Assembly (NCBI RefSeq): GCF_055900595.2
Contig: NZ_CM148325.1
Strand: one strand, 5' to 3'
Length of the DNA stretch: 64,000 nucleotides
Position 1 is the first letter of the stretch; every line of letters begins with the position of its first letter. The position numbers and the translations under genes are program-made. Under the pieces are notes generated by a model, which made no database searches, was not told the DNA's origin, and was given only the letters and a program-made list of their open reading frames with translations. This document shows, piece after piece, positions 2,827 through 17,261 of this stretch.

Positions 2827-4977
2827 ATGGATACTAAAAAGATATTCAAGCACATACCCTGGGTGATTCTTGGAATCATCGGTGCATTCTGCCTCGCGGT
2901 AGTTGCATTACGTCGGGGGGAGCACGTCAGCGCCCTGTGGATCGTGGTCGCCTCTGTGTCAGTGTATCTGGTGGCTTATCGCTACTACAGTCTGTACATC
3001 GCCCAGAAAGTGATGAAACTCGACCCCACGCGCGCGACGCCTGCGGTTATTAACAACGACGGTCTGAACTATGTTCCGACCAACCGTTACGTGTTGTTTG
3101 GTCACCACTTCGCTGCTATCGCCGGTGCGGGTCCGCTGGTTGGTCCGGTTCTCGCCGCGCAGATGGGCTACCTGCCTGGTACGCTGTGGCTGCTGGCGGG
3201 GGTAGTGCTGGCCGGTGCGGTACAGGACTTTATGGTGCTGTTTATCTCCTCTCGCCGTAACGGCGCATCTCTCGGTGAGATGATCAAAGAAGAGATGGGG
3301 CCAGTACCGGGAACTATCGCGCTGTTTGGCTGTTTCTTAATCATGATCATCATCCTCGCCGTTCTGGCGCTGATTGTGGTTAAAGCCCTGGCCGAAAGTC
3401 CGTGGGGTGTCTTCACCGTTTGCTCAACCGTACCAATTGCGCTGTTTATGGGTATCTACATGCGCTTTATCCGTCCGGGGCGTGTAGGTGAAGTCTCTGT
3501 TATTGGTATCGTGCTGCTGGTTGCCTCTATCTACTTCGGTGGCGTGATTGCTCACGATCCGTACTGGGGTCCGGCACTGACCTTTAAAGACACCACCATT
3601 ACCTTCGCACTGATTGGCTATGCGTTTGTTTCCGCACTGCTGCCGGTGTGGCTGATCCTCGCACCGCGCGACTATCTGGCAACCTTCCTGAAAATCGGCG
3701 TTATCGTCGGCCTGGCGCTGGGTATCGTGGTGCTGAACCCGGAACTGAAAATGCCTGCGATGACCCAGTACATTGACGGTACTGGCCCGCTGTGGAAAGG
3801 CGCTCTGTTCCCGTTCCTGTTCATCACCATCGCCTGTGGTGCGGTATCTGGCTTCCACGCGCTGATCTCTTCCGGTACGACGCCGAAACTGCTGGCTAAC
3901 GAAACCGACGCGCGTTTCATTGGCTACGGCGCAATGCTGATGGAGTCCTTCGTGGCGATTATGGCGCTGGTTGCTGCGTCCATCATCGAACCGGGTCTTT
4001 ACTTCGCGATGAATACCCCGCCTGCGGGCCTTGGCATCACCATGCCTAACCTGCATGAAATGGGTGGCGAGAACGCGCCGATCATCATGGCGCAGCTGAA
4101 AGACGTTACCGCACACGCGGCAGCGACTGTCAGCTCCTGGGGCTTCGTTATTTCGCCAGAGCAGATCCTGCAAACCGCGAAAGACATTGGTGAGCCTTCT
4201 GTCCTGAACCGTGCAGGTGGTGCGCCGACGCTGGCGGTAGGTATCGCTCACGTGTTCCATAAAGTGCTGCCGATGGCTGACATGGGCTTCTGGTATCACT
4301 TCGGCATTCTGTTCGAAGCCCTGTTCATCCTGACCGCGCTGGATGCGGGTACCCGTTCTGGTCGCTTTATGCTGCAAGACCTGCTGGGTAACTTCATCCC
4401 GTTCCTGAAAAAAACCGATTCTCTGGTTGCCGGTATCATCGGTACTGCGGGCTGTGTGGGTCTGTGGGGCTACCTGCTGTATCAGGGCGTGGTCGATCCG
4501 CTGGGCGGCGTTAAGAGCCTGTGGCCGCTGTTCGGTATCTCCAACCAGATGCTGGCAGCCGTAGCGCTGGTACTGGGCACCGTTGTGCTGATTAAGATGA
4601 AGCGCACCCAATACATCTGGGTGACTGTTGTTCCGGCTGTATGGCTGCTTATCTGCACCACCTGGGCGCTGGGCCTGAAACTGTTCAGCACCAACCCGCA
4701 GATGGAAGGCTTCTTCTACATGGCAAGCCAGTACAAAGAGAAGATTGCTAACGGTACTGACCTGACGGCACAGCAGATTGCCAACATGAACCACATCGTT
4801 GTGAACAACTACACCAACGCGGGTCTGAGTATTCTGTTCCTGATTGTGGTGTACAGCATCATCTTCTACGGTTTCAAAACCTGGCTGAAGGTGCGTAACA
4901 GCGACAAACGTACTGACAAAGAAACACCGTACGTTCCAATCCCGGAAGGCGGCGTGAAGATATCTTCGCACCACTAA
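2827..4977 (+). CDS. btsT: CstA-family pyruvate/H+ symporter BtsT (YjiY)
   Basis: ORF track 2812..4977; start moved to the internal in-frame ATG (aa 6, MDTKKIFKHIPWVILG...) giving 716 aa, the length I recall for E. coli BtsT. Multi-pass hydrophobic CstA-like protein. Confidence 0.9.
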   Translation: MDTKKIFKHIPWVILGIIGAFCLAVVALRRGEHVSALWIVVASVSVYLVAYRYYSLYIAQKVMKLDPTRATPAVINNDGLNYVPTNRYVLFGHHFAAIAGAGPLVGPVLAAQMGYLPGTLWLLAGVVLAGAVQDFMVLFISSRRNGASLGEMIKEEMGPVPGTIALFGCFLIMIIILAVLALIVVKALAESPWGVFTVCSTVPIALFMGIYMRFIRPGRVGEVSVIGIVLLVASIYFGGVIAHDPYWGPALTFKDTTITFALIGYAFVSALLPVWLILAPRDYLATFLKIGVIVGLALGIVVLNPELKMPAMTQYIDGTGPLWKGALFPFLFITIACGAVSGFHALISSGTTPKLLANETDARFIGYGAMLMESFVAIMALVAASIIEPGLYFAMNTPPAGLGITMPNLHEMGGENAPIIMAQLKDVTAHAAATVSSWGFVISPEQILQTAKDIGEPSVLNRAGGAPTLAVGIAHVFHKVLPMADMGFWYHFGILFEALFILTALDAGTRSGRFMLQDLLGNFIPFLKKTDSLVAGIIGTAGCVGLWGYLLYQGVVDPLGGVKSLWPLFGISNQMLAAVALVLGTVVLIKMKRTQYIWVTVVPAVWLLICTTWALGLKLFSTNPQMEGFFYMASQYKEKIANGTDLTAQQIANMNHIVVNNYTNAGLSILFLIVVYSIIFYGFKTWLKVRNSDKRTDKETPYVPIPEGGVKISSHH

Positions 4978-8233: not shown

Positions 8234-9853
8234 ATGGCCAAAGCACCAACTAAAAAAGCCAAAGCAAAGAAAGGCTTTGAAGAAACATTATGGGATACCG
8301 CAAACCAACTTCGCGGTAGCGTTGAGTCTTCCGAATACAAGCACGTGGTGTTGAGCCTCGTGTTCCTGAAATTCATCAGCGATAAGTTTGAAGCACGCCG
8401 CAAAAAAATGATTGCCGATGGGCAAGCTGACTTCCTTGAGATGGAAGTGTTCTACCAGCAGGACAACATTTTCTACCTGCCGGAAGAGGCGCGCTGGTCA
8501 TTTATCAAACAAAATGCCAAACAGGACGATATTGCGGTTCGTATTGACACCGCCCTCTCGACCATTGAGAAACGTAACCCAACCCTGAAAGGCGCGCTGC
8601 CAGACAACTACTTCAGCCGTCAGAATCTGGAAACCAAAAAACTGGCGTCACTGATTGATACCATCGACAACATCGAAACGCTGGCACACGAAACTGACGT
8701 TGAAACGTTATCGAAAGAAGACCTGGTCGGACGCGTTTACGAATACTTCCTCGGTAAGTTTGCCGCAACTGAAGGCAAAGGCGGTGGTGAGTTCTACACG
8801 CCAAAATGTGTGGTTACACTGTTAACAGAAATGCTCGAACCCTTCCAGGGCAAAATTTATGACCCGTGCTGCGGCTCGGCGGGGATGTTTGTGCAGTCAG
8901 TGAAGTTTGTCGAGAGCCATCAGGGTAAAAGTCGTGATATCGCGCTGTATGGTCAGGAACTGACAGCCACGACGTATAAACTGGCAAAAATGAACCTCGC
9001 TATTCGCGGTCTTTCAGCTAACCTCGGCGAACGCCCGGCAAACACTTTCTTTAGCGACCAGCACCCGAACCTGAAAGCCGACTACATTCTAGCGAACCCG
9101 CCGTTCAACCTGAAAGACTGGCGTAATGAAGCCGAATTAACCAAAGATCCACGTTTTGCCGGTTATCGTATGCCGCCAACCGGTAACGCCAACTACGGCT
9201 GGATTTTGCATATGCTCTCCAAGCTGTCGGCTAACGGCACAGCAGGTTTTGTGTTGGCAAACGGATCGATGAGTTCTAACACCAGCGGCGAAGGCGAGAT
9301 CCGTGCACAGATGATCGAAAATGATCTGATTGACTGCATGATCGCCCTACCTGGACAGTTGTTTTACACCACGCAGATCCCGGTGTGTTTATGGTTTATG
9401 ACCAAATCGAAGGCTGCCGATCCGGCCAAAGGTTATCGTGATCGTCAGGGCGAGACGCTGTTTATTGATGCGCGTAACCTCGGCACCATGGTTAGCCGCA
9501 CAACTAAAGAGTTAACGACGGAAGATATTGCCACAATCGCCGATACCTACCATGCCTGGCGCAGCACGCCGGAAGAACTGGCTGCGCGGATTGCGCGTGG
9601 TGACAGCAAGCTGGAAAAATATGAAGACCAGGCAGGCTTCTGCAAAGTTGCGACCCTGCAAGATATTAAAGATAACGACTACGTTCTGACACCGGGCCGC
9701 TATGTGGGTGCAGCCGAGCAGGAAGAAGACGGCGTGGCATTTGAGACGAAAATGCATGAATTGTCGAAGACGTTGTTTGAGCAGATGAAGCAGGCGGAAG
9801 AACTGGATCGTGCGATTCGCCAGAATCTGGAGGCGCTGGGTTATGGGGAGTAA
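8234..9853 (+). CDS. hsdM: Type I restriction-modification methyltransferase subunit HsdM
   Basis: 539 aa; N6-adenine methyltransferase motifs GEFYTP (X), DPCCGSAGMF (I) and NPPFN (IV) present in the translation. Confidence 0.9.
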   Translation: MAKAPTKKAKAKKGFEETLWDTANQLRGSVESSEYKHVVLSLVFLKFISDKFEARRKKMIADGQADFLEMEVFYQQDNIFYLPEEARWSFIKQNAKQDDIAVRIDTALSTIEKRNPTLKGALPDNYFSRQNLETKKLASLIDTIDNIETLAHETDVETLSKEDLVGRVYEYFLGKFAATEGKGGGEFYTPKCVVTLLTEMLEPFQGKIYDPCCGSAGMFVQSVKFVESHQGKSRDIALYGQELTATTYKLAKMNLAIRGLSANLGERPANTFFSDQHPNLKADYILANPPFNLKDWRNEAELTKDPRFAGYRMPPTGNANYGWILHMLSKLSANGTAGFVLANGSMSSNTSGEGEIRAQMIENDLIDCMIALPGQLFYTTQIPVCLWFMTKSKAADPAKGYRDRQGETLFIDARNLGTMVSRTTKELTTEDIATIADTYHAWRSTPEELAARIARGDSKLEKYEDQAGFCKVATLQDIKDNDYVLTPGRYVGAAEQEEDGVAFETKMHELSKTLFEQMKQAEELDRAIRQNLEALGYGE

Positions 9854-11207
9854 GTTTCAACTAATTTTATTAGATAATGTGGCCGAGGTAATCGACTCTA
9901 GACATAAAACCCCCAATTACACAGAAACCGGCTACCCAATGGTTCGTGTTGTCGATATTAAAAATGGTGAATTAGATTTAAAGAATACAAAGAGAGTCAC
10001 AAAGGATATATACGAGGACTTTTCAAAAGGACGATCTCCACAGATTGGAGATCTCATTATTTCCCGAGTAGGCTCATATGGGAACATATCCTACGTTTCA
10101 AAAAATGAAAAATTTTGCCTAGGGCAAAACACTGCATTTATTATCCCAAATGAAAAAAATAGCTATCTATATTATGCTTTAATATCTCCTTTTGTACAAC
10201 AACAAATTAACGACATGGCTGTCGGTGCTGTACAAAAAACAATTAGTTTAAAAAGCATTAAAAATTTAAAAATTCCGTACCCAGAGTTAAATATAAGAAA
10301 TATTATTTCTAAAAAATTAAGAGTTATTGATAATAGGATAAGTACTAATGATAAAATAAATCAAACCCTGGAAAAAATGTCCCAAACCCTGTTCAAATCC
10401 TGGTTTGTGGATTTTGATCCGGTGATTGATAACGCTCTGGATGCAGGAAATCCAATCCCGGAAACCCTGCAATCTCGTACCGAATTGCGTCAAAAAGTAC
10501 GTAATAGTACAGATTTTAAACCGCTTCCGGCGGAAATTCGCTCGCTTTTCCCAAGTGAATTTGAAGAAACGGAGTTGGGTTGGGTGCCAAAGGGCTGGAC
10601 GCTGAAGTCTGTAGCAAAATCCATAAATATAAATCCTAGTCTAAAATTACCAAAAAATAAAATCGCAAAGTATGTTGATATGAAATCTTTACCTACTCAA
10701 GGATATTCAATATCAGATATTATTGAAAAGCCATATTCAGGGGGAGCGAAATTCCAAAATAACGATACTTTATTCGCTCGGATAACTCCATGCCTAGAAA
10801 ATGGTAAAACAGGATTTGTTGATTTTTTAGATGAAAAAGAGACTGCGTTTGGCTCTACTGAATTTATAGTGATGCGAGGTACTCCTCAAGTACATTATTT
10901 GTATGTGGCTTGTTTAGCCCGAGAAAGTAATTTCAGGTTACATGCAATACAAAACATGATCGGTTCATCCGGCCGCCAACGGGTACAGAATAGCTGCTTT
11001 GATAGCTTTTATATTGCAATACCAACACCTGCTGTAATGAGCTTATTTTCAGGAAAAGTCAGTAGTTACTTTGATAAAATGTATTTCTGTAATTTGGAAA
11101 ACAAATCCCTGACAGCCCTCCGCGACACCCTGCTCCCGAAACTCATCTCCGGCGAGCTATCCCTGGAAGATCTTCCGGATCTCACCACCGATACAGAAGC
11201 CGCATAA
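9843..11207 (+). CDS. hsdS: Type I restriction-modification specificity subunit HsdS (two TRDs)
   Basis: ORF track 9810..11207; start set at in-frame MGSKFQL (aa 12), overlapping the hsdM stop. Two AT-rich variable regions separated and followed by conserved spacer segments (LFKSWFVDFDP ..., LRDTLLPKLISGEL). Confidence 0.85.
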   Translation: MGSKFQLILLDNVAEVIDSRHKTPNYTETGYPMVRVVDIKNGELDLKNTKRVTKDIYEDFSKGRSPQIGDLIISRVGSYGNISYVSKNEKFCLGQNTAFIIPNEKNSYLYYALISPFVQQQINDMAVGAVQKTISLKSIKNLKIPYPELNIRNIISKKLRVIDNRISTNDKINQTLEKMSQTLFKSWFVDFDPVIDNALDAGNPIPETLQSRTELRQKVRNSTDFKPLPAEIRSLFPSEFEETELGWVPKGWTLKSVAKSININPSLKLPKNKIAKYVDMKSLPTQGYSISDIIEKPYSGGAKFQNNDTLFARITPCLENGKTGFVDFLDEKETAFGSTEFIVMRGTPQVHYLYVACLARESNFRLHAIQNMIGSSGRQRVQNSCFDSFYIAIPTPAVMSLFSGKVSSYFDKMYFCNLENKSLTALRDTLLPKLISGELSLEDLPDLTTDTEAA

Positions 11208-11301
11208 CGCATTTTGCCCCTGTAAAATCAGGGGCTTTCTGGTAAGGTTTTCTACTGATACGGGAATGCTTACCAGAAATTAGCCAGGGTTGGAGCGCGA
11301 T

Positions 11302-14300
11302 ATGAGTCTCTCTTTCAGTGAAGCAAAATTAGAACAAGCGATCATTGAACTGTTACAGGATCAGGGATATCAACACCTGATCGGCGATAATGTCCCACGT
11401 TCAAGTCTCGATCAGGTCATTATCGAAGACGATCTCCGTCATTATTTAGCGGCACGCTACCAGCCTGATGGCATTACTGAAGAAGAGATTCAGCGACTGA
11501 TCAAACAGTTCACCACGCTCCCCGCTTCCGATCTTTATGAAAGCAACAAAACATTTTGTCGCTGGCTGGCAAATGGTTTTCTGTTCAAACGCGACGATCG
11601 GCAACAAAAAGATCTCTATATTGAATTGCTCGACACCCGGCATCTACCTGCCGCACTGCGCCAGATATTTGACGCCGAAGATGTCCCGTTGCAACAGGCG
11701 GCGGAACTCCCGCCCTCCTATATTAATCCGCCGCTTAACCGGATTAAGATTGTTAACCAGCTTAAAATCTCTGGTAAAGATAATCAGACTCGTATTCCTG
11801 ACGGCATTCTCTATATCAACGGTCTGCCACTGGTCGTCTTTGAATTTAAAAGTGCGGTGCGCGAGCAGGATGCCAGTATTGGCGATGCCTGGAAGCAGCT
11901 CTGTAAACGCTATCGCCGGGATATTCCGCAACTGTTTATCTACAACGCGCTCTGCATTATTAGCGATGGCGTTAATAACCGGATGGGCAACCTGTTTGCG
12001 CCCTATGAATATTTTTACTCATGGCGCAAAGTCACCGGTAATGAAAACCGTGAACAGGACGGAATTCCGTCATTGCACTCAATGATTCAGGGGCTGTTTC
12101 ATCCGGTACGTCTGCTGGATGTGATTAAAAACTTTATCTGCTTCCCGGATAAAGCCAAGCACGAAGTAAAAATTTGCTGCCGTTATCCGCAGTACTATGC
12201 CGCCCGCAAACTCTATTACAGCATCAAGCAAGCGCGTAAACCTTTCGGTAGCGGTAAAGGCGGCACCTACTTTGGCGCAACGGGCTGTGGCAAAAGTTAC
12301 ACCATGCAATTTTTAACGCGTCTTTTGATGAAGAGCGTGGAGTTTGCCAGCCCGACCATTGTTTTGATCACCGACCGCACCGATCTGGACGATCAGCTTT
12401 CTGCGCAAATGTGCAATGCCAAAAATTACATTGGCGACGACACCATCGTTCCTGTTACCAGCCGTGAAGATTTGCGTAATCAACTGGCGGGACGCAATAG
12501 TGGCGGTGTATTCCTGACAACGATCCATAAATTCACCGAAGACACCGAACTCCTTTCTGAACGCAGCAATATCATTTGCATCTCGGACGAAGCACATCGC
12601 AGCCAGGTTAACCTCGACCAGAAAGTCATCGTCGATAAAGAAAGCGGAAAAGTGCGCAAAACTTATGGCTTTGCGAAATACCTGCACGATTCACTGCCAA
12701 ACGCCACCTATGTTGGCTTTACCGGAACTCCGATTGACGCAACACTCGATGTCTTCGGTGAGGTGATCGACAGTTACACCATGACCGAATCCGTTCAGGA
12801 TGAAATCACTGTACGCATCGTGTACGAAGGCCGTGCGGCTAAAGTGATCCTGGACTCCAGCAAACTGGAAGAAGTCGAAAAGTATTACGAAGAGTGCGCA
12901 AACGCAGGCACCAATGAGTGGCAAATCGACGAAAGCAAAAAAGCCACCGCAACCATGAATGCGGTACTGGGTGATGAAGATCGGTTAAAAGCCCTCGCGG
13001 AAGATTTTGCTAAACATTATGAAAAACGCGTAGCCGAAGGTTCCACCGTAAAAGGCAAAGCCATGTTTGTTTGTGCCAGCCGTGAAATTGCCTGGGATTT
13101 CTACCGTCAGCTTAAAGCTATTCGCCCTGCCTGGTATGAAGTGAAGCAAGCCCCCGATGGCGTCGTCCTGACAGAACAGGAGCAAAAAGAGTTACCGCCT
13201 TCTGAAATGGTGAAGATGGTCATGACGCGCGGTAAAGATGACGACGAGGCGCTTTATGATTTACTGGGCACAAAAGAATATCGTAAAGAGCTGGATAAGC
13301 AGTTCAAAAACGCTAAATCGAATTTCAAAATTGCCATTGTTGTTGATATGTGGCTGACCGGTTTTGACGTTCCTGAACTGGATACCATCTATATTGATAA
13401 GCCCTTACAAAAACATAACCTTATCCAGACCATTTCTCGCGTTAACCGTAAACTGGAAGGCAAAAGTAAAGGGTTAGTGGTGGACTACATCGGCATTAAA
13501 AGTCAGATGAACCAGGCACTGGCAATGTATTCCCGCATTGATGCCACCAACTTTGAAGATATTCAGCAATCGGTAATCGAAGTTAAAAACCATCTCGATT
13601 TGTTGGGGCAAGTCTTTTACGAATTTGACAGTCGGGATTATTTTAGTGGTGAGCCACAAGCGCAATTATCCTGCCTCAACCGCGCGGCGGAATTCGTTCT
13701 GAGTACCCAGAAAGTTGAACGTCGTTTTATGGGACTGGTTAAACGCATGAAAGCCGCCTACGACGTCTGCTGCGGCAGCGAAGCATTATCACAGACAGAA
13801 CGTGACTATATTCACTATTATCTTGCTGTTCGTTCAATTGTTTTCAAACTGACGAAAGGTGACGCACCGGATGTTACCCAGATGAATGCACGCGTTCGCG
13901 AAATGATTGCAGAAGCGTTAAAAGCTGATGGCGTAGAAGAGATTTATTTTCTTGGCGATAAAAAAGCGGAATCCATCGATATTTTTGACGAAGATTATCT
14001 GGCGCGAATTAACAAGATCAAACTTCCGGCAACGAAGATCCAGTTATTACAAAAATTACTGGAAAAAGCAATCAGCGACTTCAAGAAAGTGAACCAGTTG
14101 CAAGGGATTAACTTCACCCGCCGCTTCCAGGCGATTATAGATCGTTATAATGAGCGGCGAGAAGATGATGTACTCAACGGTGAAGAATTCGATACATTCA
14201 GTCAGGAAATGACCGATATTATCTATGATATTAAAACCGAAATGGGTACCTGGGCCGACTTAGGCATTGATATTGAAGAAAAAGCCTTTTTCGACATTCT

Positions 14301-14565
14301 TGCTCATATGCGCGATAAATATCAGTTCACCTATGACGATGAAAAAATGCTGTCACTGGCAAAAGAGATGAAAAGCGTGGTTGACAACACATCGAAATAT
14401 CCTGACTGGAGTAAACGCGATGATATTAAAGCGAAACTGAAAGTTGAACTTATTCTGCTTCTACACAAGCATAAGTTCCCGCCAGTAGCGAATGATGATG
14501 TTTATATGGGTGTGCTGGCACAGGCAGAGAATTTTAAAGAACACCATATGAGTGCTTTAAATTAA
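11302..14565 (+). CDS. hsdR: Type I restriction enzyme R subunit HsdR
   Basis: ORF track 11290..14565; helicase motifs GATGCGKSYT (Walker A) and ISDEAHRS (DEAH box) seen. Start placed at second in-frame ATG (MSLSF), which has GGAG upstream; 11290 is the alternative. Confidence 0.9.
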   Translation: MSLSFSEAKLEQAIIELLQDQGYQHLIGDNVPRSSLDQVIIEDDLRHYLAARYQPDGITEEEIQRLIKQFTTLPASDLYESNKTFCRWLANGFLFKRDDRQQKDLYIELLDTRHLPAALRQIFDAEDVPLQQAAELPPSYINPPLNRIKIVNQLKISGKDNQTRIPDGILYINGLPLVVFEFKSAVREQDASIGDAWKQLCKRYRRDIPQLFIYNALCIISDGVNNRMGNLFAPYEYFYSWRKVTGNENREQDGIPSLHSMIQGLFHPVRLLDVIKNFICFPDKAKHEVKICCRYPQYYAARKLYYSIKQARKPFGSGKGGTYFGATGCGKSYTMQFLTRLLMKSVEFASPTIVLITDRTDLDDQLSAQMCNAKNYIGDDTIVPVTSREDLRNQLAGRNSGGVFLTTIHKFTEDTELLSERSNIICISDEAHRSQVNLDQKVIVDKESGKVRKTYGFAKYLHDSLPNATYVGFTGTPIDATLDVFGEVIDSYTMTESVQDEITVRIVYEGRAAKVILDSSKLEEVEKYYEECANAGTNEWQIDESKKATATMNAVLGDEDRLKALAEDFAKHYEKRVAEGSTVKGKAMFVCASREIAWDFYRQLKAIRPAWYEVKQAPDGVVLTEQEQKELPPSEMVKMVMTRGKDDDEALYDLLGTKEYRKELDKQFKNAKSNFKIAIVVDMWLTGFDVPELDTIYIDKPLQKHNLIQTISRVNRKLEGKSKGLVVDYIGIKSQMNQALAMYSRIDATNFEDIQQSVIEVKNHLDLLGQVFYEFDSRDYFSGEPQAQLSCLNRAAEFVLSTQKVERRFMGLVKRMKAAYDVCCGSEALSQTERDYIHYYLAVRSIVFKLTKGDAPDVTQMNARVREMIAEALKADGVEEIYFLGDKKAESIDIFDEDYLARINKIKLPATKIQLLQKLLEKAISDFKKVNQLQGINFTRRFQAIIDRYNERREDDVLNGEEFDTFSQEMTDIIYDIKTEMGTWADLGIDIEEKAFFDILAHMRDKYQFTYDDEKMLSLAKEMKSVVDNTSKYPDWSKRDDIKAKLKVELILLLHKHKFPPVANDDVYMGVLAQAENFKEHHMSALN

Positions 14566-14811
14566 TTATGAAGGCCGGATAATTCAATAATTATTCGGCT
14601 TACTCATTTATAAATATGGTAAAAACATCATAACAATATCTATAAATCATAGTTAAAAAAATCACGCTAACTCATTAAAAATATAAGTATTTTCACATTA
14701 TGGGTAAAAATACCATTCTCCTTTTGAGCTTAACAAATACAGACTCTATCCATTCATAACAGATCCGTGCATAATTTCATTTATCGCAGCACAACCAAAA
14801 CACAACACAAC

Positions 14812-14926
14812 CATCACATCACATCACATCACATCACATCACATCACATCACATCACATCACATCACATCACATCACATCGCATCACATCGCATCACATC
14901 ACATCGCATCACATCGCATTACATCA
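14812..14926. repeat. pentanucleotide microsatellite, about 23 units of CATCA with CATCG/CATTA variants
   Basis: Read directly: (CATCA)n runs uninterrupted from about 14812, with CATCG and CATTA variant units toward the 3' end, in the AT-rich intergenic region between hsdR and the downstream S-M module. Confidence 0.9.
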
Positions 14927-15220
14927 ACTTAACTTAAGTTAATAAATTTAAAACATATAACGCACAAAATTGGTCGTCTGATCTTTAGCGGAAAAAATCA
15001 TGACTGTAAAGTCATCATGTATTAACTACTTTTCCAGATATCACACCATTAAAAAAAATAAAAAAAATCAATTAGTTATAAAATTTTCAAACATAACACA
15101 TAACATTAATCTGATGCTCTCCAAAAAAATTAAGCAGTGCAGGGTGACAACCCCATAGCAGTACGCTACCTTACTGAAAAATTACTTAATACGATACTGA
15201 AAGTTAGAAGGAGCCACACC

Positions 15221-15391
15221 ATGAGGAAAAAGAAAGGGTTAAACCGAGTTATTTGCTTGTTTTTGATAACAATTTTATCACATTTAGTGTCTGATGATGA
15301 TATCCTATTATTTCAGTTAGAGGATCTGTCAAAAGCAAATACCTCTATGGGTATTCATCTTTCCGTTGATTTCAAACATGAGACCAAATGA
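15221..15391 (+). CDS. small ORF (56 aa) translationally coupled to the downstream half-S gene; hypothetical
   Basis: In-frame ATG (aa 29 of ORF 15137..15391) preceded by AGAAGGAG at 7-nt spacing; stop overlaps the next start as ATGA. Product MRKKKGLNRVICLFLITILSHLV... has a basic N-terminus and one hydrophobic stretch. No family recognised. Confidence 0.35.
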   Translation: MRKKKGLNRVICLFLITILSHLVSDDDILLFQLEDLSKANTSMGIHLSVDFKHETK

Positions 15392-15969
15392 TTATGAAAA
15401 ATCTATCAGAGATAGCATATGTTTTTGGTGGACACTCATTTCGTACCAAAGCTGAAGCTGCAACAGGTTGCATCAAACTTATTCAGATAAAAGATATACA
15501 GGCAGGCATATTTGGTGATTTCTCGTCACTTCCTTTTGCAGATCTTTCAGAAGAAAAACTAAAATTCAACCTAAAAACAAATGATATTCTTTTACCTTTA
15601 AGAGGCGAAAGGATAGCAGCAATGATGATAGATAACGAAAATAATGTTGCAGTTACTACAACGAATCAAATTGCCATTATAAGAATTAATAGCAATTTGA
15701 TCACTCCAGAGTATTTGTTATATTTTCTAAATGCACCGAAAGGTATTAATCTGATAAATGAACTACAAGGTAACGGATTGGTTACAAACCTTAGCATAAA
15801 AAAACTTACAACATTAACATTACCGATTCCATCATTGGATATTCAATATGAAGTTATTAACCTTCATAACATGTGGACAAAACAAAAAGAGACCTTATGT
15901 AGTTTAATAGAAAATGGTTCTGCATTGTGTCATGCAACAATCAATAAGTTAATCTACAAAGGAGAGTAA
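15388..15969 (+). CDS. half-size (single-TRD) Type I-like specificity subunit (HsdS-like)
   Basis: 193 aa; begins like a target-recognition domain (LSEIAYVFGGHSF) and ends with the conserved TRD-distal segment (ITPEYLLYFLNAPKGINLINELQGNGLVTNLSIKKLTTLTLPIP). AT-rich codon usage. Followed 3 nt later by the MTase gene. Confidence 0.7.
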   Translation: MIMKNLSEIAYVFGGHSFRTKAEAATGCIKLIQIKDIQAGIFGDFSSLPFADLSEEKLKFNLKTNDILLPLRGERIAAMMIDNENNVAVTTTNQIAIIRINSNLITPEYLLYFLNAPKGINLINELQGNGLVTNLSIKKLTTLTLPIPSLDIQYEVINLHNMWTKQKETLCSLIENGSALCHATINKLIYKGE

Positions 15970-15971
15970 AT

Positions 15972-17231
15972 ATGAAAATACAAGAATTTATAAGCATATT
16001 ACAATCTATCCCCTGCAATTCCCTGGATAAATACCAGAAAATGCTTATTTGTTTTGAAGCTACTGTACTAACTTATTTACATAAGGACTCTGCCAAGAAA
16101 ATTATATCAGTAAGTGAAATGGATATTGAACATATTTACAGACACTCGCCGTCATTAAATAAAAACAAAGTAACATGGGATGAGTTTTCTTATATTTTTT
16201 CAGATATAATCTTTCATATAAAGTCCTCTAACATGGATGTCAATAAATATATATCAAATATATTTCAACACCTTTGTTACGATTATCATCACAAAAAATT
16301 CTCTAAAATAGATATTATTAATATAATCACCTCGAATATTGAGCAACTAAGACCTCTATCTCAAAGGCATCATACTCCTAATGAGTTGGTTGAATTAATG
16401 AGTAAAATAGTCAATATCCAAGATGGTGATATTTTTTATGATCCTGCATGTGGTTCAGGTGAGTTCATTTCTGCAATGTTTAATAAAAATGTCATGATAT
16501 ATGGTACTGAAAGCATCATAGAAAGAGCTAAAATATCAAAATTAAAAATGCTCGCAACCGGAAATAATCCTTTAAATATTACGACGCCATATTTTAACGA
16601 TAATAATCTACCTGAAAAATTTGATATTATTTTATCCAACCCCCCTTTCTCTCTAAAAATACCTGAAAATATGCAAAAAAAAATTTGCATTTATGGAGAA
16701 CCACCTGTTTCAAATGCTGATTTTATATTTTTACAATTCTGCATTTACAAACTAAAAAATAATGGATGCGCTGCTATCATCATGCCGGACAGCATTTTAT
16801 TTAGAAGTGGAAAAGAACAAGAAATACGTAAATCATTTATTGAGAAAGGGCATATTTCCACCATTATTTTTTTACCGAAAGGTATTTTTAAAAACACTTA
16901 TGTACCAACAAGCATTTTGCTACTACGCAAGCAAAATGACTATGACGACATCCTATTCATTGATGCAAGAGATAAAACAACCTTCAACAACGATCTTATA
17001 ATTCATTTATTTACTGAACGTGAAAATAATAAGTTATCGAAGATTGTTACAAAATCAGAAATTGCTGATAATGATTATAACTTGTCAGCAGCATTATATT
17101 TTAAAGAAGAAACAGAAATACCAGAAATAGAACAATTAATAGACAATCAAAAATACCTCAGCAGTAAATTACAGGATTTACATTATGATTTCATTCACAC
17201 TATATCCAGATTATCACCAAAAAATGAATAA
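15972..17231 (+). CDS. compact gamma-class N6-adenine DNA methyltransferase (HsdM-like, 419 aa)
   Basis: Motif I DPACGSGEF and motif IV NPPFS in HsdM-like order and spacing; AGGAG precedes the ATG. Strongly AT-rich. About 130 N-terminal residues unassigned. Confidence 0.8.
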   Translation: MKIQEFISILQSIPCNSLDKYQKMLICFEATVLTYLHKDSAKKIISVSEMDIEHIYRHSPSLNKNKVTWDEFSYIFSDIIFHIKSSNMDVNKYISNIFQHLCYDYHHKKFSKIDIINIITSNIEQLRPLSQRHHTPNELVELMSKIVNIQDGDIFYDPACGSGEFISAMFNKNVMIYGTESIIERAKISKLKMLATGNNPLNITTPYFNDNNLPEKFDIILSNPPFSLKIPENMQKKICIYGEPPVSNADFIFLQFCIYKLKNNGCAAIIMPDSILFRSGKEQEIRKSFIEKGHISTIIFLPKGIFKNTYVPTSILLLRKQNDYDDILFIDARDKTTFNNDLIIHLFTERENNKLSKIVTKSEIADNDYNLSAALYFKEETEIPEIEQLIDNQKYLSSKLQDLHYDFIHTISRLSPKNE

Positions 17232-17261
17232 TTTGCTGCAAAACGCCACGCTAAGCTCCCC

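What the first reader, a model, noticed from the sequence alone, without database searches (positions are those of the whole stretch)
15221..15391. Small ORF translationally coupled to the half-S gene
A 56-aa ORF with a strong AGAAGGAG site ends in an ATGA overlap with the start of the HsdS-like gene. The product has a basic N-terminus and a single hydrophobic helix-like stretch and is not an obvious HTH controller protein. It could be a coupling leader peptide, a small membrane protein or an unrecognised third subunit of the module.
Basis: seen in the sequence. Interest (0 to 1): 0.45.

Follow-up and report, generated by a model that had tools for sequence, protein, structure and literature searches.

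The report
Conserved small gene leading orphan methylase operon
The 56-codon reading frame is a real, evolutionarily conserved but almost never annotated small gene that always sits first in a three-gene DNA-methylase operon; it encodes a membrane-type mini-protein of unknown role and probably also feeds ribosomes onto the next gene.

Summary
ATG 15221 follows AGAAGGAG by 7 nt, the frame runs 56 codons, and its TGA (15389-15391) overlaps the ATG of the half-size S gene (15388).

It is more than chance. In all 12 independent lineages of this S-M module that I could fetch, a 53-70 codon ORF with a strong ribosome-binding site lies just upstream of S, and it abuts or overlaps the S start in 10 of them. 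These lineages cover Escherichia, Salmonella-type and other enterics, Pseudomonas, Halopseudomonas, a Vibrio plasmid, Microbulbifer and soil metagenomes, with S identity down to 32%.

Between enteric lineages pN/pS is 0.26-0.39, the same range as the M gene. There is no indel, and the other five frames are closed.

The products share one architecture: a basic N-terminus, an 11-15 residue hydrophobic core, a variable linker, an amphipathic strand motif and a charged tail. No Pfam, NCBIfam, PHROG, PADLOC or PDB relative exists. PGAP leaves the ORF unannotated in both PGAP-annotated records examined.

S has a weak ribosome-binding site nearly everywhere, so re-initiation coupling is plausible. 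AlphaFold gave no support for docking onto S or M.

Biochemical function is unknown. The best reading is a small envelope protein that is the first cistron of an orphan 'Type 1½' methyltransferase operon. A conserved CAGTA/TACTG element brackets the promoter.

The parts
14572..14601 (+). Terminator-like hairpin just after hsdR; marks the module as a separate transcription unit
   Evidence: 13-pair stem followed by a T-rich tail. hsdR ends at 14565.
15144..15172 (+). Putative promoter of the operon: -35 GTGACA (15144-15149), 17-nt spacer, -10 TACCTT (15167-15172), preceded by an A-tract
   Evidence: This is the best-conserved non-coding block in alignment A3 of five enteric lineages. It is too weak for the consensus scan, so it is inferred, not shown. 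Canonical TTGACA-17-TAnnnT promoters sit at the equivalent place in the Vibrio, soil and Pseudomonas loci.
15159..15176 (+). Interrupted palindrome CAGTA-N8-TACTG overlapping the putative -10; candidate operator or own target site of the methylase
   Evidence: There is one copy in the 64-kb window against 0.01 expected. There is exactly one copy, always upstream of the small ORF, in loci L001-L012, and none in 85 unrelated loci. CAGTA/TACTG half-sites also bracket the promoter in the Pseudomonas, Halopseudomonas and metagenome loci.
15206..15213 (+). Shine-Dalgarno sequence AGAAGGAG of the small ORF
   Evidence: Anti-SD duplex energy is -8.0 kcal/mol. Every lineage has a comparable site, -5.7 to -8.7 kcal/mol.
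15221..15391 (+). Small ORF, 56 codons plus stop; first cistron; new small-protein family with basic N-terminus, hydrophobic core, variable linker, amphipathic strand and charged tail
   Evidence: It has no known family. A profile search of 1.84 billion representatives finds only its own family.
15388..15391 (+). ATGA stop/start overlap between the small ORF and S
   Evidence: The same ATGA or TGATG arrangement occurs in most lineages.
15388..15969 (+). Half-size specificity subunit (one TRD plus one long C-terminal helix), 193 aa
   Evidence: It has the PF01420 domain and matches PADLOC Specificity_I. AlphaFold gives pLDDT above 90, a beta-rich domain and a 44-residue helix. Its SD is weak at -2.7 kcal/mol.
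15972..17231 (+). Gamma-class N6-adenine DNA methyltransferase, 419 aa, with a short non-HsdM_N N-terminal region
   Evidence: Pfam N6_Mtase matches at 8.5e-52 over residues 133-381. The NPPF motif and DPACGSG are seen in A4. The TIGR00497 hsdM score is 93, below the cut-off of 243.

Best explanation
The ORF is a genuine protein-coding gene and the first cistron of a horizontally acquired three-gene operon: small gene, half-size S, then M. The operon encodes an orphan 'Type 1½' DNA methyltransferase, expected to be 2M+2S.

**Shown by sequence.** It has a strong ribosome-binding site at ideal spacing, a frame kept open and at constant length across deep divergence, and purifying selection on the hydrophobic core and on the C-terminal strand motif.

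**Inferred.**
1. Ribosomes load at the small ORF. S has almost no Shine-Dalgarno site of its own and starts on the small ORF's stop, so S is translated largely by termination-reinitiation. The small ORF therefore sets how much S is made, and through the tight S-M junction also how much M.
2. The peptide is not a mere spacer. Its positively charged N-terminus and 11-15 residue hydrophobic core should send it to the inner membrane, either N-in as a signal anchor or as a cleavable signal peptide. That would leave a roughly 30-residue tail with one or two amphipathic strands outside the cytoplasm.

**Not known.** What it does there is unknown. I consider an envelope-side role that complements the cytoplasmic methylase more likely than a stoichiometric subunit of the enzyme. 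Examples are interference with incoming DNA or phage, or membrane placement of the translating operon mRNA.
For: **Anatomy.**

**Synteny.** An ORF of 53-70 codons with an AAGGAG/GGAG site lies directly before S in 12 of 12 lineages:
- Escherichia: the window, L001, L002 and L098-100.
- Salmonella-type: L003, L004 and L006.
- Other enterics: L007/L008 and L009-011.
- Soil: L012.
- Pseudomonas: L101-103.
- Halopseudomonas: L104.
- Vibrio plasmid: L095 and L110.
- Metagenomes: L105, L106 and L107-109.
- Microbulbifer: L005.

**Coding signal.**
- pN/pS is 0.26-0.39 between enteric lineages, against 0.36-0.38 for M and 0.23-0.26 for S, excluding the closest pair L006-L003/L004.
- Third-position changes are in excess.
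- Frame 0 gives the lowest pN/pS, and all five other frames carry 1-8 stops in every lineage.
- There is no indel in 56 codons, while the 5' leader has indels.
- Constraint sits in residues 10-24 and 39-56, and the middle is near neutral.

**Architecture.** It is shared at 7-41% identity.

**Structure prediction.** AlphaFold of the family alone gives a helix with pLDDT 89 over residues 11-20 and a disordered tail.

**Translation signals.** The S Shine-Dalgarno site is weak everywhere except Vibrio and Halopseudomonas (AAGGAG 8 nt upstream). No promoter-like site lies inside the ORF.

**Precedent.** ATGA and TGATG overlaps act through termination-reinitiation (PMC6728339). The EcoKI M-S pair is translationally coupled through a 1-nt overlap (PMC3510504).

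**Gene callers.** They called the ORF in hundreds of Escherichia contigs as a 'hypothetical protein'.
Against: - No expression data exist, and nothing here shows that the protein is made.
- Within Escherichia the ORF shows only non-synonymous changes: 5 N and 0 S against L098, and 2 N and 0 S against L002. Over the same comparison S and M show pS of 0.10-0.16. This fits relaxed constraint in this lineage or a separate recombination history, and it does not fit omega near 0.25 (P about 0.03 by my estimate).
- The hydrophobic core is short for a membrane span. No clean signal-peptidase site or lipobox is conserved, so membrane insertion is a judgement from hydropathy and charge, not a prediction from a trained tool.
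- Coupling is not universal. The junction is a 216-nt gap in L005 and a 17-nt gap in L109. Vibrio and Halopseudomonas S have good Shine-Dalgarno sites of their own.
- No conserved RNA structure masks the S start, so S may also initiate independently.
- The fused AlphaFold model gives no contact with S or M.
Confidence: 0.55

Rival explanations
1. The ORF is a pure cis-acting leader. Only the act of translating it matters, because it delivers ribosomes to the weak S start. The peptide has no function of its own and is degraded.
For: - Stop and start overlap, and S has a weak SD.
- Within Escherichia all changes are non-synonymous.
- The middle third evolves near neutrally.
- No relatives exist outside this operon.
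- AlphaFold shows no docking to S or M.
Against: - A leader would not need a constant architecture at 7-23% identity from enterics to Pseudomonas, Vibrio and Microbulbifer.
- It would not need pN/pS as low as M's, with saturated synonymous sites in the hydrophobic core.
- The ORF persists where the junction is lost (L005 has a 216-nt gap, L109 a 17-nt gap) and where S has its own strong SD (Vibrio, Halopseudomonas).
Confidence: 0.2
2. The ORF encodes a small membrane toxin or effector. It could be a Hok-like membrane-damaging peptide, or the killing or exclusion arm of a restriction-less defence or addiction module in which the S-M enzyme is the sensor or the antidote.
For: - Its size and layout (basic N-terminus, hydrophobic helix, charged tail) resemble type I toxins and small effectors; this comparison is from memory only.
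- The module always lies in defence islands, next to Type I R-M, Mrr, SymE, BrnTA, AbiE or NERD-helicase genes.
- No nuclease gene travels with the module.
Against: - It is the first, best-translated cistron of a constitutive-looking operon, which is awkward for a toxin.
- No antisense RNA or Rfam toxin-antitoxin element is present, and no minus-strand promoter lies nearby.
- No PADLOC or PHROG match was found.
- The toxin and its supposed antidote share one promoter, so loss of the module removes both.
Confidence: 0.12
3. The ORF encodes a module-specific transcription regulator, a functional analogue of a C protein, that binds the conserved CAGTA/TACTG half-sites around the promoter.
For: - Conserved half-sites bracket the promoter in all but the Vibrio lineage, which implies a regulator carried by the module.
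- The small protein has a basic N-terminus.
- C genes are often the first cistron; this point is from memory, and the AhdI C-R unit is described in PMC2275141.
Against: - It has no helix-turn-helix or ribbon-helix-helix signature.
- The core is strongly hydrophobic.
- Only M1 is invariant across the family, while the DNA half-site is identical from enterics to Pseudomonas.
- The S subunit or the unexplained N-terminal region of M are better candidates for the binder.
Confidence: 0.05
4. The ORF is a chance open frame in AT-rich DNA and is not a gene.
For: PGAP does not annotate it in E. coli MB52 or in the Vibrio plasmid. The islet contains other spurious ORFs.
Against: - A frame of this composition stays open with probability about 0.01 per lineage, yet it is open in 12 of 12.
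- Substitutions are codon-structured.
- A strong SD is conserved.
Confidence: 0.03

Closest known systems
'Type 1½' methyltransferases of Type II systems (M.AhdI, M.BsaBI, M.PshAI; 2M+2S), and the AhdI M-S operon
   Same: - It has a separate gamma-class M and a half-size, single-TRD S, which is expected to dimerise and read a symmetric interrupted site (PMC3874165, sections 32-34).
- A short interrupted palindrome lies over the putative -10 of the operon, as in AhdI. There, methylation of an AhdI site over the -10 attenuates the M-S promoter (PMC2275141).
   Different: - No restriction endonuclease gene and no C gene travels with the module in any lineage.
- The gene order is S before M.
- A conserved small hydrophobic protein gene precedes S; none is mentioned for AhdI in the two papers consulted.
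- The stoichiometry, the recognition site and any methylation control are all untested here.
Translationally coupled overlapping gene pairs (ATGA/TGATG; e.g. EcoKI hsdM-hsdS)
   Same: The stop of the upstream gene overlaps the start of the downstream gene, and the downstream start has a poor Shine-Dalgarno site (PMC6728339, PMC3510504).
   Different: In this module the upstream partner is a 56-codon gene with no known function rather than a subunit of the enzyme. The junction is also not strictly conserved.
Controller (C) proteins of R-M systems
   Same: Both are a small first cistron in an R-M-related operon, with a conserved symmetric DNA element at the promoter.
   Different: C proteins are soluble helix-turn-helix dimers that bind C-boxes. 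This product has no HTH and has a membrane-type hydrophobic core. The DNA element is CAGTA/TACTG, not a GACT/AGTC C-box; the C-box consensus is quoted from memory.
Small hydrophobic type I toxins (Hok, Ldr, TisB class) and small membrane proteins of enterobacteria
   Same: The size is about 50-60 residues, with a charged N-terminus, one hydrophobic helix and a polar tail.
   Different: There is no sequence similarity, no antisense RNA and no Rfam element. The ORF is embedded in an operon and coupled to a methylase gene rather than standing alone.
Secretion-monitoring arrest peptides (SecM, MifM, VemP)
   Same: An N-terminal targeting segment and a conserved C-terminal motif that ends right at the next gene's start.
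   Different: The downstream gene is not a secretion factor. No hairpin masks the downstream start. The C-terminal motif is an amphipathic strand with a charged tail, not a known arrest motif. The resemblance is of layout only and is recalled from memory.

Membership tests
Type 1½ methyltransferase (M.AhdI-like, 2M+2S) | Separate S subunit with a single TRD and one dimerisation helix | tested here: met
   The S protein is 193 aa with one PF01420 domain. The AlphaFold model has a beta-rich domain and a 44-residue C-terminal helix at pLDDT above 90. All 77 family members are 109-208 aa, mostly 188-208 aa.
Type 1½ methyltransferase (M.AhdI-like, 2M+2S) | Gamma-class N6-adenine MTase with motif I and NPPF/Y | tested here: met
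   Pfam N6_Mtase matches at 8.5e-52. DPACGSGEF and NPPFS are conserved in A4.
Type 1½ methyltransferase (M.AhdI-like, 2M+2S) | Symmetric interrupted recognition sequence and 2M+2S stoichiometry | not testable with these tools
   There is only a candidate site, CAGTA-N8-TACTG, at the promoter. Methylome sequencing and biochemistry are needed.
Type 1½ methyltransferase (M.AhdI-like, 2M+2S) | Partner Type II endonuclease (and usually a C protein) in the same locus | tested here: not met
   No nuclease or HTH gene is consistently adjacent, and the neighbours differ in every lineage. The module therefore works like a Type 1½ MTase but is an orphan, not a Type II R-M system.
Classical Type I R-M (HsdM/HsdS/HsdR) | HsdM with an HsdM_N domain that reaches the TIGR00497 cut-off, a two-TRD HsdS, and its own HsdR | tested here: not met
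   TIGR00497 scores 93.3 against a cut-off of 242.75 and covers only residues 133-388. There is no HsdM_N hit. S is half-size. The adjacent hsdMSR (up to 14565) is a separate complete system with its own terminator.
Controller (C) protein | Helix-turn-helix DNA-binding fold | tested here: not met
   No Pfam hit appears even at E<=10 for the protein or any of 7 family members. There is no NCBIfam hit. AlphaFold gives a single long helix with a hydrophobic core.
Type I toxin-antitoxin (small membrane toxin plus antisense RNA) | Cognate antisense or overlapping small RNA and a stand-alone toxin locus | tested here: not met
   Rfam gives nothing above chance in 14566-15500, and no minus-strand promoter-like site lies near the ORF. 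The ORF is fused into an operon. The absence of an unknown sRNA cannot be proven.
MADS (methylation-associated defence system) | mad2 and mad5 equivalogs plus the other mad genes | tested here: not met
   MAD2 scores 54.5 bits against a cut-off of 720, and MAD5 scores 20.1 against 400. No other mad genes are nearby.
Bacterial lipoprotein / Sec signal peptide | Lipobox L-[AS]-[GA]-C, or an A-x-A type cleavage site after a 7-15 residue h-region | tested here: inconclusive
   Inspection only. The enteric Cys12 is preceded by I or L and comes too early, and it is absent in the soil, Pseudomonas and Microbulbifer forms. Small residues (S-S, S-P-N, G-S-S) follow the h-region, but no consistent -3/-1 pattern appears. 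No trained predictor was available.

The most novel reading that the evidence does not exclude
The small protein is the envelope-side working part of a previously unrecognised three-gene, nuclease-free immunity or epigenetic module. In this reading a single-pass membrane peptide excludes incoming DNA or phage, or kills the cell on a signal. It is expressed in fixed proportion to, and under the methylation-sensitive promoter of, a self-regulating orphan 2M+2S methyltransferase whose own target (CAGTA-type half-sites) gates the operon.
Probability: 0.12. Interest if true: 0.75.

Novelty: new variant of a known kind. Interest (0 to 1): 0.5.

Why it matters
Half-size-S plus M 'Type 1½' methylases are known, but only as parts of Type II systems with a nuclease and a C protein. 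Here the same enzyme type travels as an orphan through defence islands of several gammaproteobacterial orders. It always travels with a small hydrophobic protein gene that standard annotation misses.

If the peptide is functional, it is a new and easily testable small-protein family of 56-70 residues, and it would be the first envelope-type partner of a Type I-like methylase. If it is only a coupling device, it is a clean natural example of a leader cistron that sets subunit dosage for a 2M+2S enzyme.

Either way, the module gives a compact system for asking how orphan methylases are regulated: a promoter with conserved half-sites, a leader gene, S and M. The practical lesson is that annotation pipelines skip this gene; PGAP does so in E. 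coli MB52 and in the Vibrio gigantis plasmid.

Tried and rejected
1. **Broad synteny scan.** The search for related loci with the M alignment on genome contigs chose generic MTase motifs. It returned only ordinary HsdM genes at 23-32% identity, which were useless for synteny. I later reused them only to deepen the AlphaFold alignment.
2. **Phage origin.** The viral-contig scan with the S profile found no relative, and tblastn of S against phage genomes found no match. The module is not phage-borne in those collections.
3. **E. coli copies.** megablast of the L007 and L009 module variants against complete E. coli genomes gave no match. The window's variant is in 1 of 5426 genomes.
4. **RNA explanations.** Rfam gives only chance-level hits. 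The fold of 15170-15420 is no more stable than shuffles, z = +0.81. The alifold consensus at the junction is -2.6 kcal/mol. I rejected a masking hairpin or a riboswitch-like leader.
5. **Known protein families.** The small protein has no match in NCBIfam, PADLOC, PHROGs, Pfam or PDB sequences. The profile search of 1.84 billion representatives found its own family plus one spurious 97-aa hit on a eukaryote-like contig.
6. **Third-subunit test.** AlphaFold of small+S+M fused by linkers, with a 51-row alignment, showed no ordering of the small part. I treat this as a weak negative, because the paired alignment is shallow and contacts or PAE are not reported.
7. **Acinetobacter and Enterobacter plasmid half-S genes** (27-30% identity) have soluble 96- and 133-aa upstream genes, an extra full S and a nuclease or ATPase. 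They belong to a different system and I did not count them.
8. **Lipoprotein reading.** I rejected it by inspection (see the membership test).
9. **The 84-aa GTG-start extension (15137).** I rejected it because its extra part covers the conserved non-coding promoter block, which contains indels.
10. **Literature.** Searches for a small protein upstream of hsdS found nothing relevant.

Full report
**1. The observation**

- AGAAGGAG lies at 15206-15213, and ATG at 15221 follows a 7-nt spacer.
- The frame has 56 sense codons: MRKKKGLNRVICLFLITILSHLVSDDDILLFQLEDLSKANTSMGIHLSVDFKHETK.
- TGA at 15389-15391 overlaps ATG 15388 of a 193-aa gene with a single Methylase_S (PF01420) domain.
- Two bases after that gene's stop, a 419-aa N6_Mtase gene starts at 15972.

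The three genes form an islet of 30% G+C (about 14500-17250) between flanks of 45-52% G+C. The islet lies in the Escherichia 'immigration control' neighbourhood, in this order: yjiA, brnTA, an Mrr-like gene, hsdM, hsdS, hsdR, the islet, yjiS, yjiR, mdtM. A terminator-like hairpin follows hsdR at 14572-14601, so the islet is its own transcription unit.

Only 1 of 5426 complete E. coli genomes (MB52, poultry, Cuba) carries this islet. NCBI's pipeline annotates S and M there but not the small ORF.

**2. Is it more than chance?**

Taken alone, it is not. A frame of this composition stays open about 1% of the time, and the islet is full of meaningless ORFs. The comparative evidence settles the matter.

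A sequence search with the 56-aa product finds a single cluster in 5.8 billion proteins, all Escherichia and called 'hypothetical'. But relatives of the S gene at 63-68% identity each carry a 56-codon ORF ending on the S start. These relatives are Salmonella-type and other enteric loci L003, L004 and L006-L011.

The same holds for more distant S relatives:

| Lineage and loci | S identity to the window | Small ORF and junction with S |
|---|---|---|
| Soil-metagenome locus L012 | 39% | 63 codons, ATGA overlap |
| Pseudomonas L101-103 | 42% | 63 codons, ATGA overlap |
| Halopseudomonas L104 | 35% | 62 codons, GTG start, 11-nt overlap |
| Vibrio gigantis plasmid L095 and its metagenome twin L110 | 32% | 60 codons, ATGA overlap, unannotated |
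| Metagenome loci L105 and L106 | 38% | 60 and 63 codons; 1-nt (L105) and 4-nt (L106) overlap |
| Metagenome loci L107/108 and L109 | 38-39% | 70 codons with a 35-nt overlap in L107/108; 53 codons with a 17-nt gap in L109 |
| Microbulbifer L005 | 47% | 58 codons, same architecture, 216 nt upstream |

That makes 12 of 12 independent lineages.

Between enteric lineages the 56 codons align without a single indel, while the leader just upstream has indels. The other coding signals agree:
- Substitutions are concentrated at third positions.
- pN/pS is 0.26-0.39. This is the same range as M (0.36-0.38) and a little above S (0.23-0.26); the S and M ranges exclude the closest pair, L006-L003/L004.
- The annotated frame gives the lowest pN/pS of the three forward frames.
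- All five other frames carry 1-8 stops in every lineage.
- Constraint lies in residues 10-24 and 39-56, and residues 25-38 are close to neutral.

One discordant result should be stated plainly. Within Escherichia the ORF differs from its nearest variants only by non-synonymous changes: 5 N and 0 S against L098, and 2 N and 0 S against L002. Over the same comparison S and M show synonymous divergence of 0.10-0.16. The numbers are small. They point either to relaxed constraint in this lineage or to a different recombination history for this segment.

**3. What the product looks like**

All family members share one layout:
- a short, mostly basic N-terminus (MRKKKG, MKRKKG, MKKKRSQK, MKKNKSK);
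- a hydrophobic core of 11-15 residues, with Kyte-Doolittle 11-residue maxima of 1.8-3.0;
- a break made of small or polar residues (S-S-N, S-P-N, G-S-S);
- a variable polar linker;
- an alternating hydrophobic/polar strand-like motif (IGVNLSIDF, NSIQLDV, NSIEVAL, THLTIL);
- a K/E/D-rich tail that runs into the S start.

AlphaFold on the family alone predicts one helix that is confident only over residues 11-20, with a disordered tail.

There is no match to Pfam, NCBIfam, PADLOC, PHROGs or PDB sequences. A profile search of 1.84 billion representatives finds only the family itself. All 77 members of the S family are 109-208 aa (mostly 188-208 aa), so there is no informative fusion of the small protein to S.

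The charge distribution (a positive N-flank in every lineage but the Vibrio one) and the hydrophobic core argue for targeting to the inner membrane. Whether it stays as an N-in anchor or is cleaved like a signal peptide cannot be decided here. No lipobox or consistent signal-peptidase site is conserved.

**4. How it probably works**

The small ORF has a strong Shine-Dalgarno site in every lineage, -5.7 to -8.7 kcal/mol. The S start has almost none, -2.7 to -2.9, except in Vibrio and Halopseudomonas (an AAGGAG 8 nt upstream).

With ATGA or TGATG overlaps in most lineages, the simplest reading is termination-reinitiation. This is documented for such overlaps in general (PMC6728339) and for the EcoKI M-S pair (PMC3510504). 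No conserved RNA structure masks the S start, and no promoter-like site lies inside the ORF. Coupling is therefore a well-founded inference, but it is not shown.

The peptide's architecture is better conserved than the junction. The ORF persists with gaps of 17 and 216 nt and with a 35-nt overlap, and it persists where S has its own good site. I therefore do not think it is only a leader.

A stoichiometric 'third subunit' has no support. In a fused small+S+M AlphaFold model, S folds at pLDDT above 90 and the catalytic part of M mostly above 80, while the small part remains at 31-46. An N-in topology would also put the conserved tail outside the cytoplasm.

My best account has a probability of about 0.55. 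It is a real small envelope protein that is also the ribosome entry cistron of the operon. Its own biochemical role is unknown.

**5.

The best-conserved non-coding block lies 45-110 nt upstream of the ATG. It contains an A-tract, a -35-like GTGACA (15144-15149), 17 nt of spacer and a -10-like TACCTT (15167-15172). It also contains the interrupted palindrome CAGTA-N8-TACTG (15159-15176).

That palindrome occurs once in the 64-kb window against 0.01 expected. It occurs exactly once, upstream of the small ORF, in each of loci L001-L012, and in none of 85 unrelated loci.

In the Pseudomonas, Halopseudomonas and metagenome clade the same 5-mers bracket a canonical promoter. TACTG abuts the -35 (ATACTGCATTGACA), and CAGTA lies about 13 nt after the -10. 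The Vibrio locus has the most divergent S. It lacks these 5-mers and instead has two TACAT-N4-ATGT(A) palindromes flanking a TTGACA-17-TACTAT promoter.

The module moves between distant hosts, so the factor that reads these sites should be encoded by the module. The closest precedent is AhdI, whose 2M+2S methylase attenuates its own M-S promoter by methylating an AhdI site over the -10 (PMC2275141). The enteric arrangement fits that model.

The variable 43-53 nt spacing in the other clade does not fit a single fixed-spacer enzyme. The identity of the binder (S2M2, the unexplained N-terminal 130 residues of M, or something else) is therefore open.

**6. Comparison with what is known**

The S-M pair works like the 'Type 1½' methyltransferases M.AhdI, M.BsaBI and M.PshAI (PMC3874165). 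It has a half-size S and a gamma-class M with NPPF.
- It is not a member of a Type II R-M system, because no nuclease or C gene travels with it.
- It is not a classical Type I system. The hsdM model score is 93 against a cut-off of 243, there is no HsdM_N domain, and it has no HsdR of its own.
- MADS, BREX and other defence models score far below their cut-offs.

The small protein belongs to no described family. It is not a C protein, because it has no HTH. It is not a type I toxin locus, because it has no antisense RNA and is embedded in an operon. It resembles arrest peptides only in layout.

**7. Verdict**

The finding is a new small-protein family that marks a conserved, previously undescribed variant of an orphan Type 1½ methylase operon. 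Interest is moderate at 0.5. The gene is solid and unannotated, its function is open, and direct experiments are easy to design.

Noticed in passing
window 14801-14926: A pentanucleotide tandem repeat (CACAT) of 25.4 copies, with CGCAT variants, lies in the spacer between hsdR and the module, about 220 nt upstream of the putative promoter. The E. coli MB52 copy of the region is 70 nt shorter. The related Escherichia loci L002 and L098 and the Salmonella-type L006 have no such array. It is a copy-number-variable repeat of unknown effect.
   Followed up: partly
window 15159-15176; also L012 660-724, L102 3687-3762, L104 3699-3790, L105 829-880, L106 639-691, L107 2191-2248, L005 5453-5534: CAGTA/TACTG half-sites are conserved around the operon promoter from enterics to Pseudomonas. 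In enterics, L012 and L005 they form CAGTA-N8-TACTG. Elsewhere TACTG abuts the -35 and CAGTA follows the -10. The Vibrio locus L095, with the most divergent S, instead has two TACAT-N4-ATGT(A) palindromes (3682-3695, 3742-3755). This may be an operator or the methylase's own target, as in AhdI.
   Followed up: partly
L001 (E. coli MB52, NZ_CP073943.1) 9586-9756; L095 (Vibrio gigantis plasmid NZ_CP092386.1) 3807-3989: The small ORF is intact but not annotated by PGAP in these finished records. It is called 'hypothetical protein' in only some Escherichia assemblies.
   Followed up: yes
window 15972-17231 and cluster members P0027, P0029, P0030, P0034, P0032; L003 3306-4370: Many Escherichia and Salmonella copies of the M gene are annotated as 332, 277, 149 or 354 aa instead of 417-419 aa. 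The methylase may often be truncated or decaying, while the small ORF and S remain intact in L003/L004.
   Followed up: no
window 9810-14565 plus the module; L007, L095, L104, L101, L102, L006: The module sits directly beside a complete classical Type I R-M system in most lineages: downstream of hsdR in Escherichia, L007, Vibrio and Halopseudomonas, and near hsdR or hsdM in Pseudomonas and L006. The neighbouring systems belong to different Type I families. This may reflect clustering in defence islands or a functional link.
   Followed up: no
window 15221-15388 versus L098 3001-3168 and L002 8001-8168: Within Escherichia the small ORF differs only by non-synonymous changes (5 and 2) with no synonymous change, although the adjacent S and M show pS of 0.10-0.16. 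This is an unusual local pattern. It could reflect relaxed or diversifying selection, or a recombination mosaic.
   Followed up: partly
window 15972-16365 (M residues 1-130): The N-terminal 130 residues of M match no Pfam domain. They replace the roughly 200-residue HsdM_N region and are poorly predicted (pLDDT about 35-65 in the fused model). The motif CNSLDKYTQxMICLExTVL is conserved among enteric lineages. This region is a candidate regulatory or DNA-binding part.
   Followed up: no
L005 5977-6009: In Microbulbifer, where the family ORF lies 216 nt upstream, a 10-codon mini-ORF (MKFIMRYFDG) overlaps the S start. It may be a substitute coupling device or may be chance.
   Followed up: no
PDB 8vsq/8vsr (Esub1, S. 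pyogenes SpyM3_0890): The closest solved structure by sequence to the half-size S is Esub1 (E = 5e-6). Esub1 is a stand-alone S-like protein bound by the phage protein paratox (PMC11754733). I did not explore this further.
   Followed up: no
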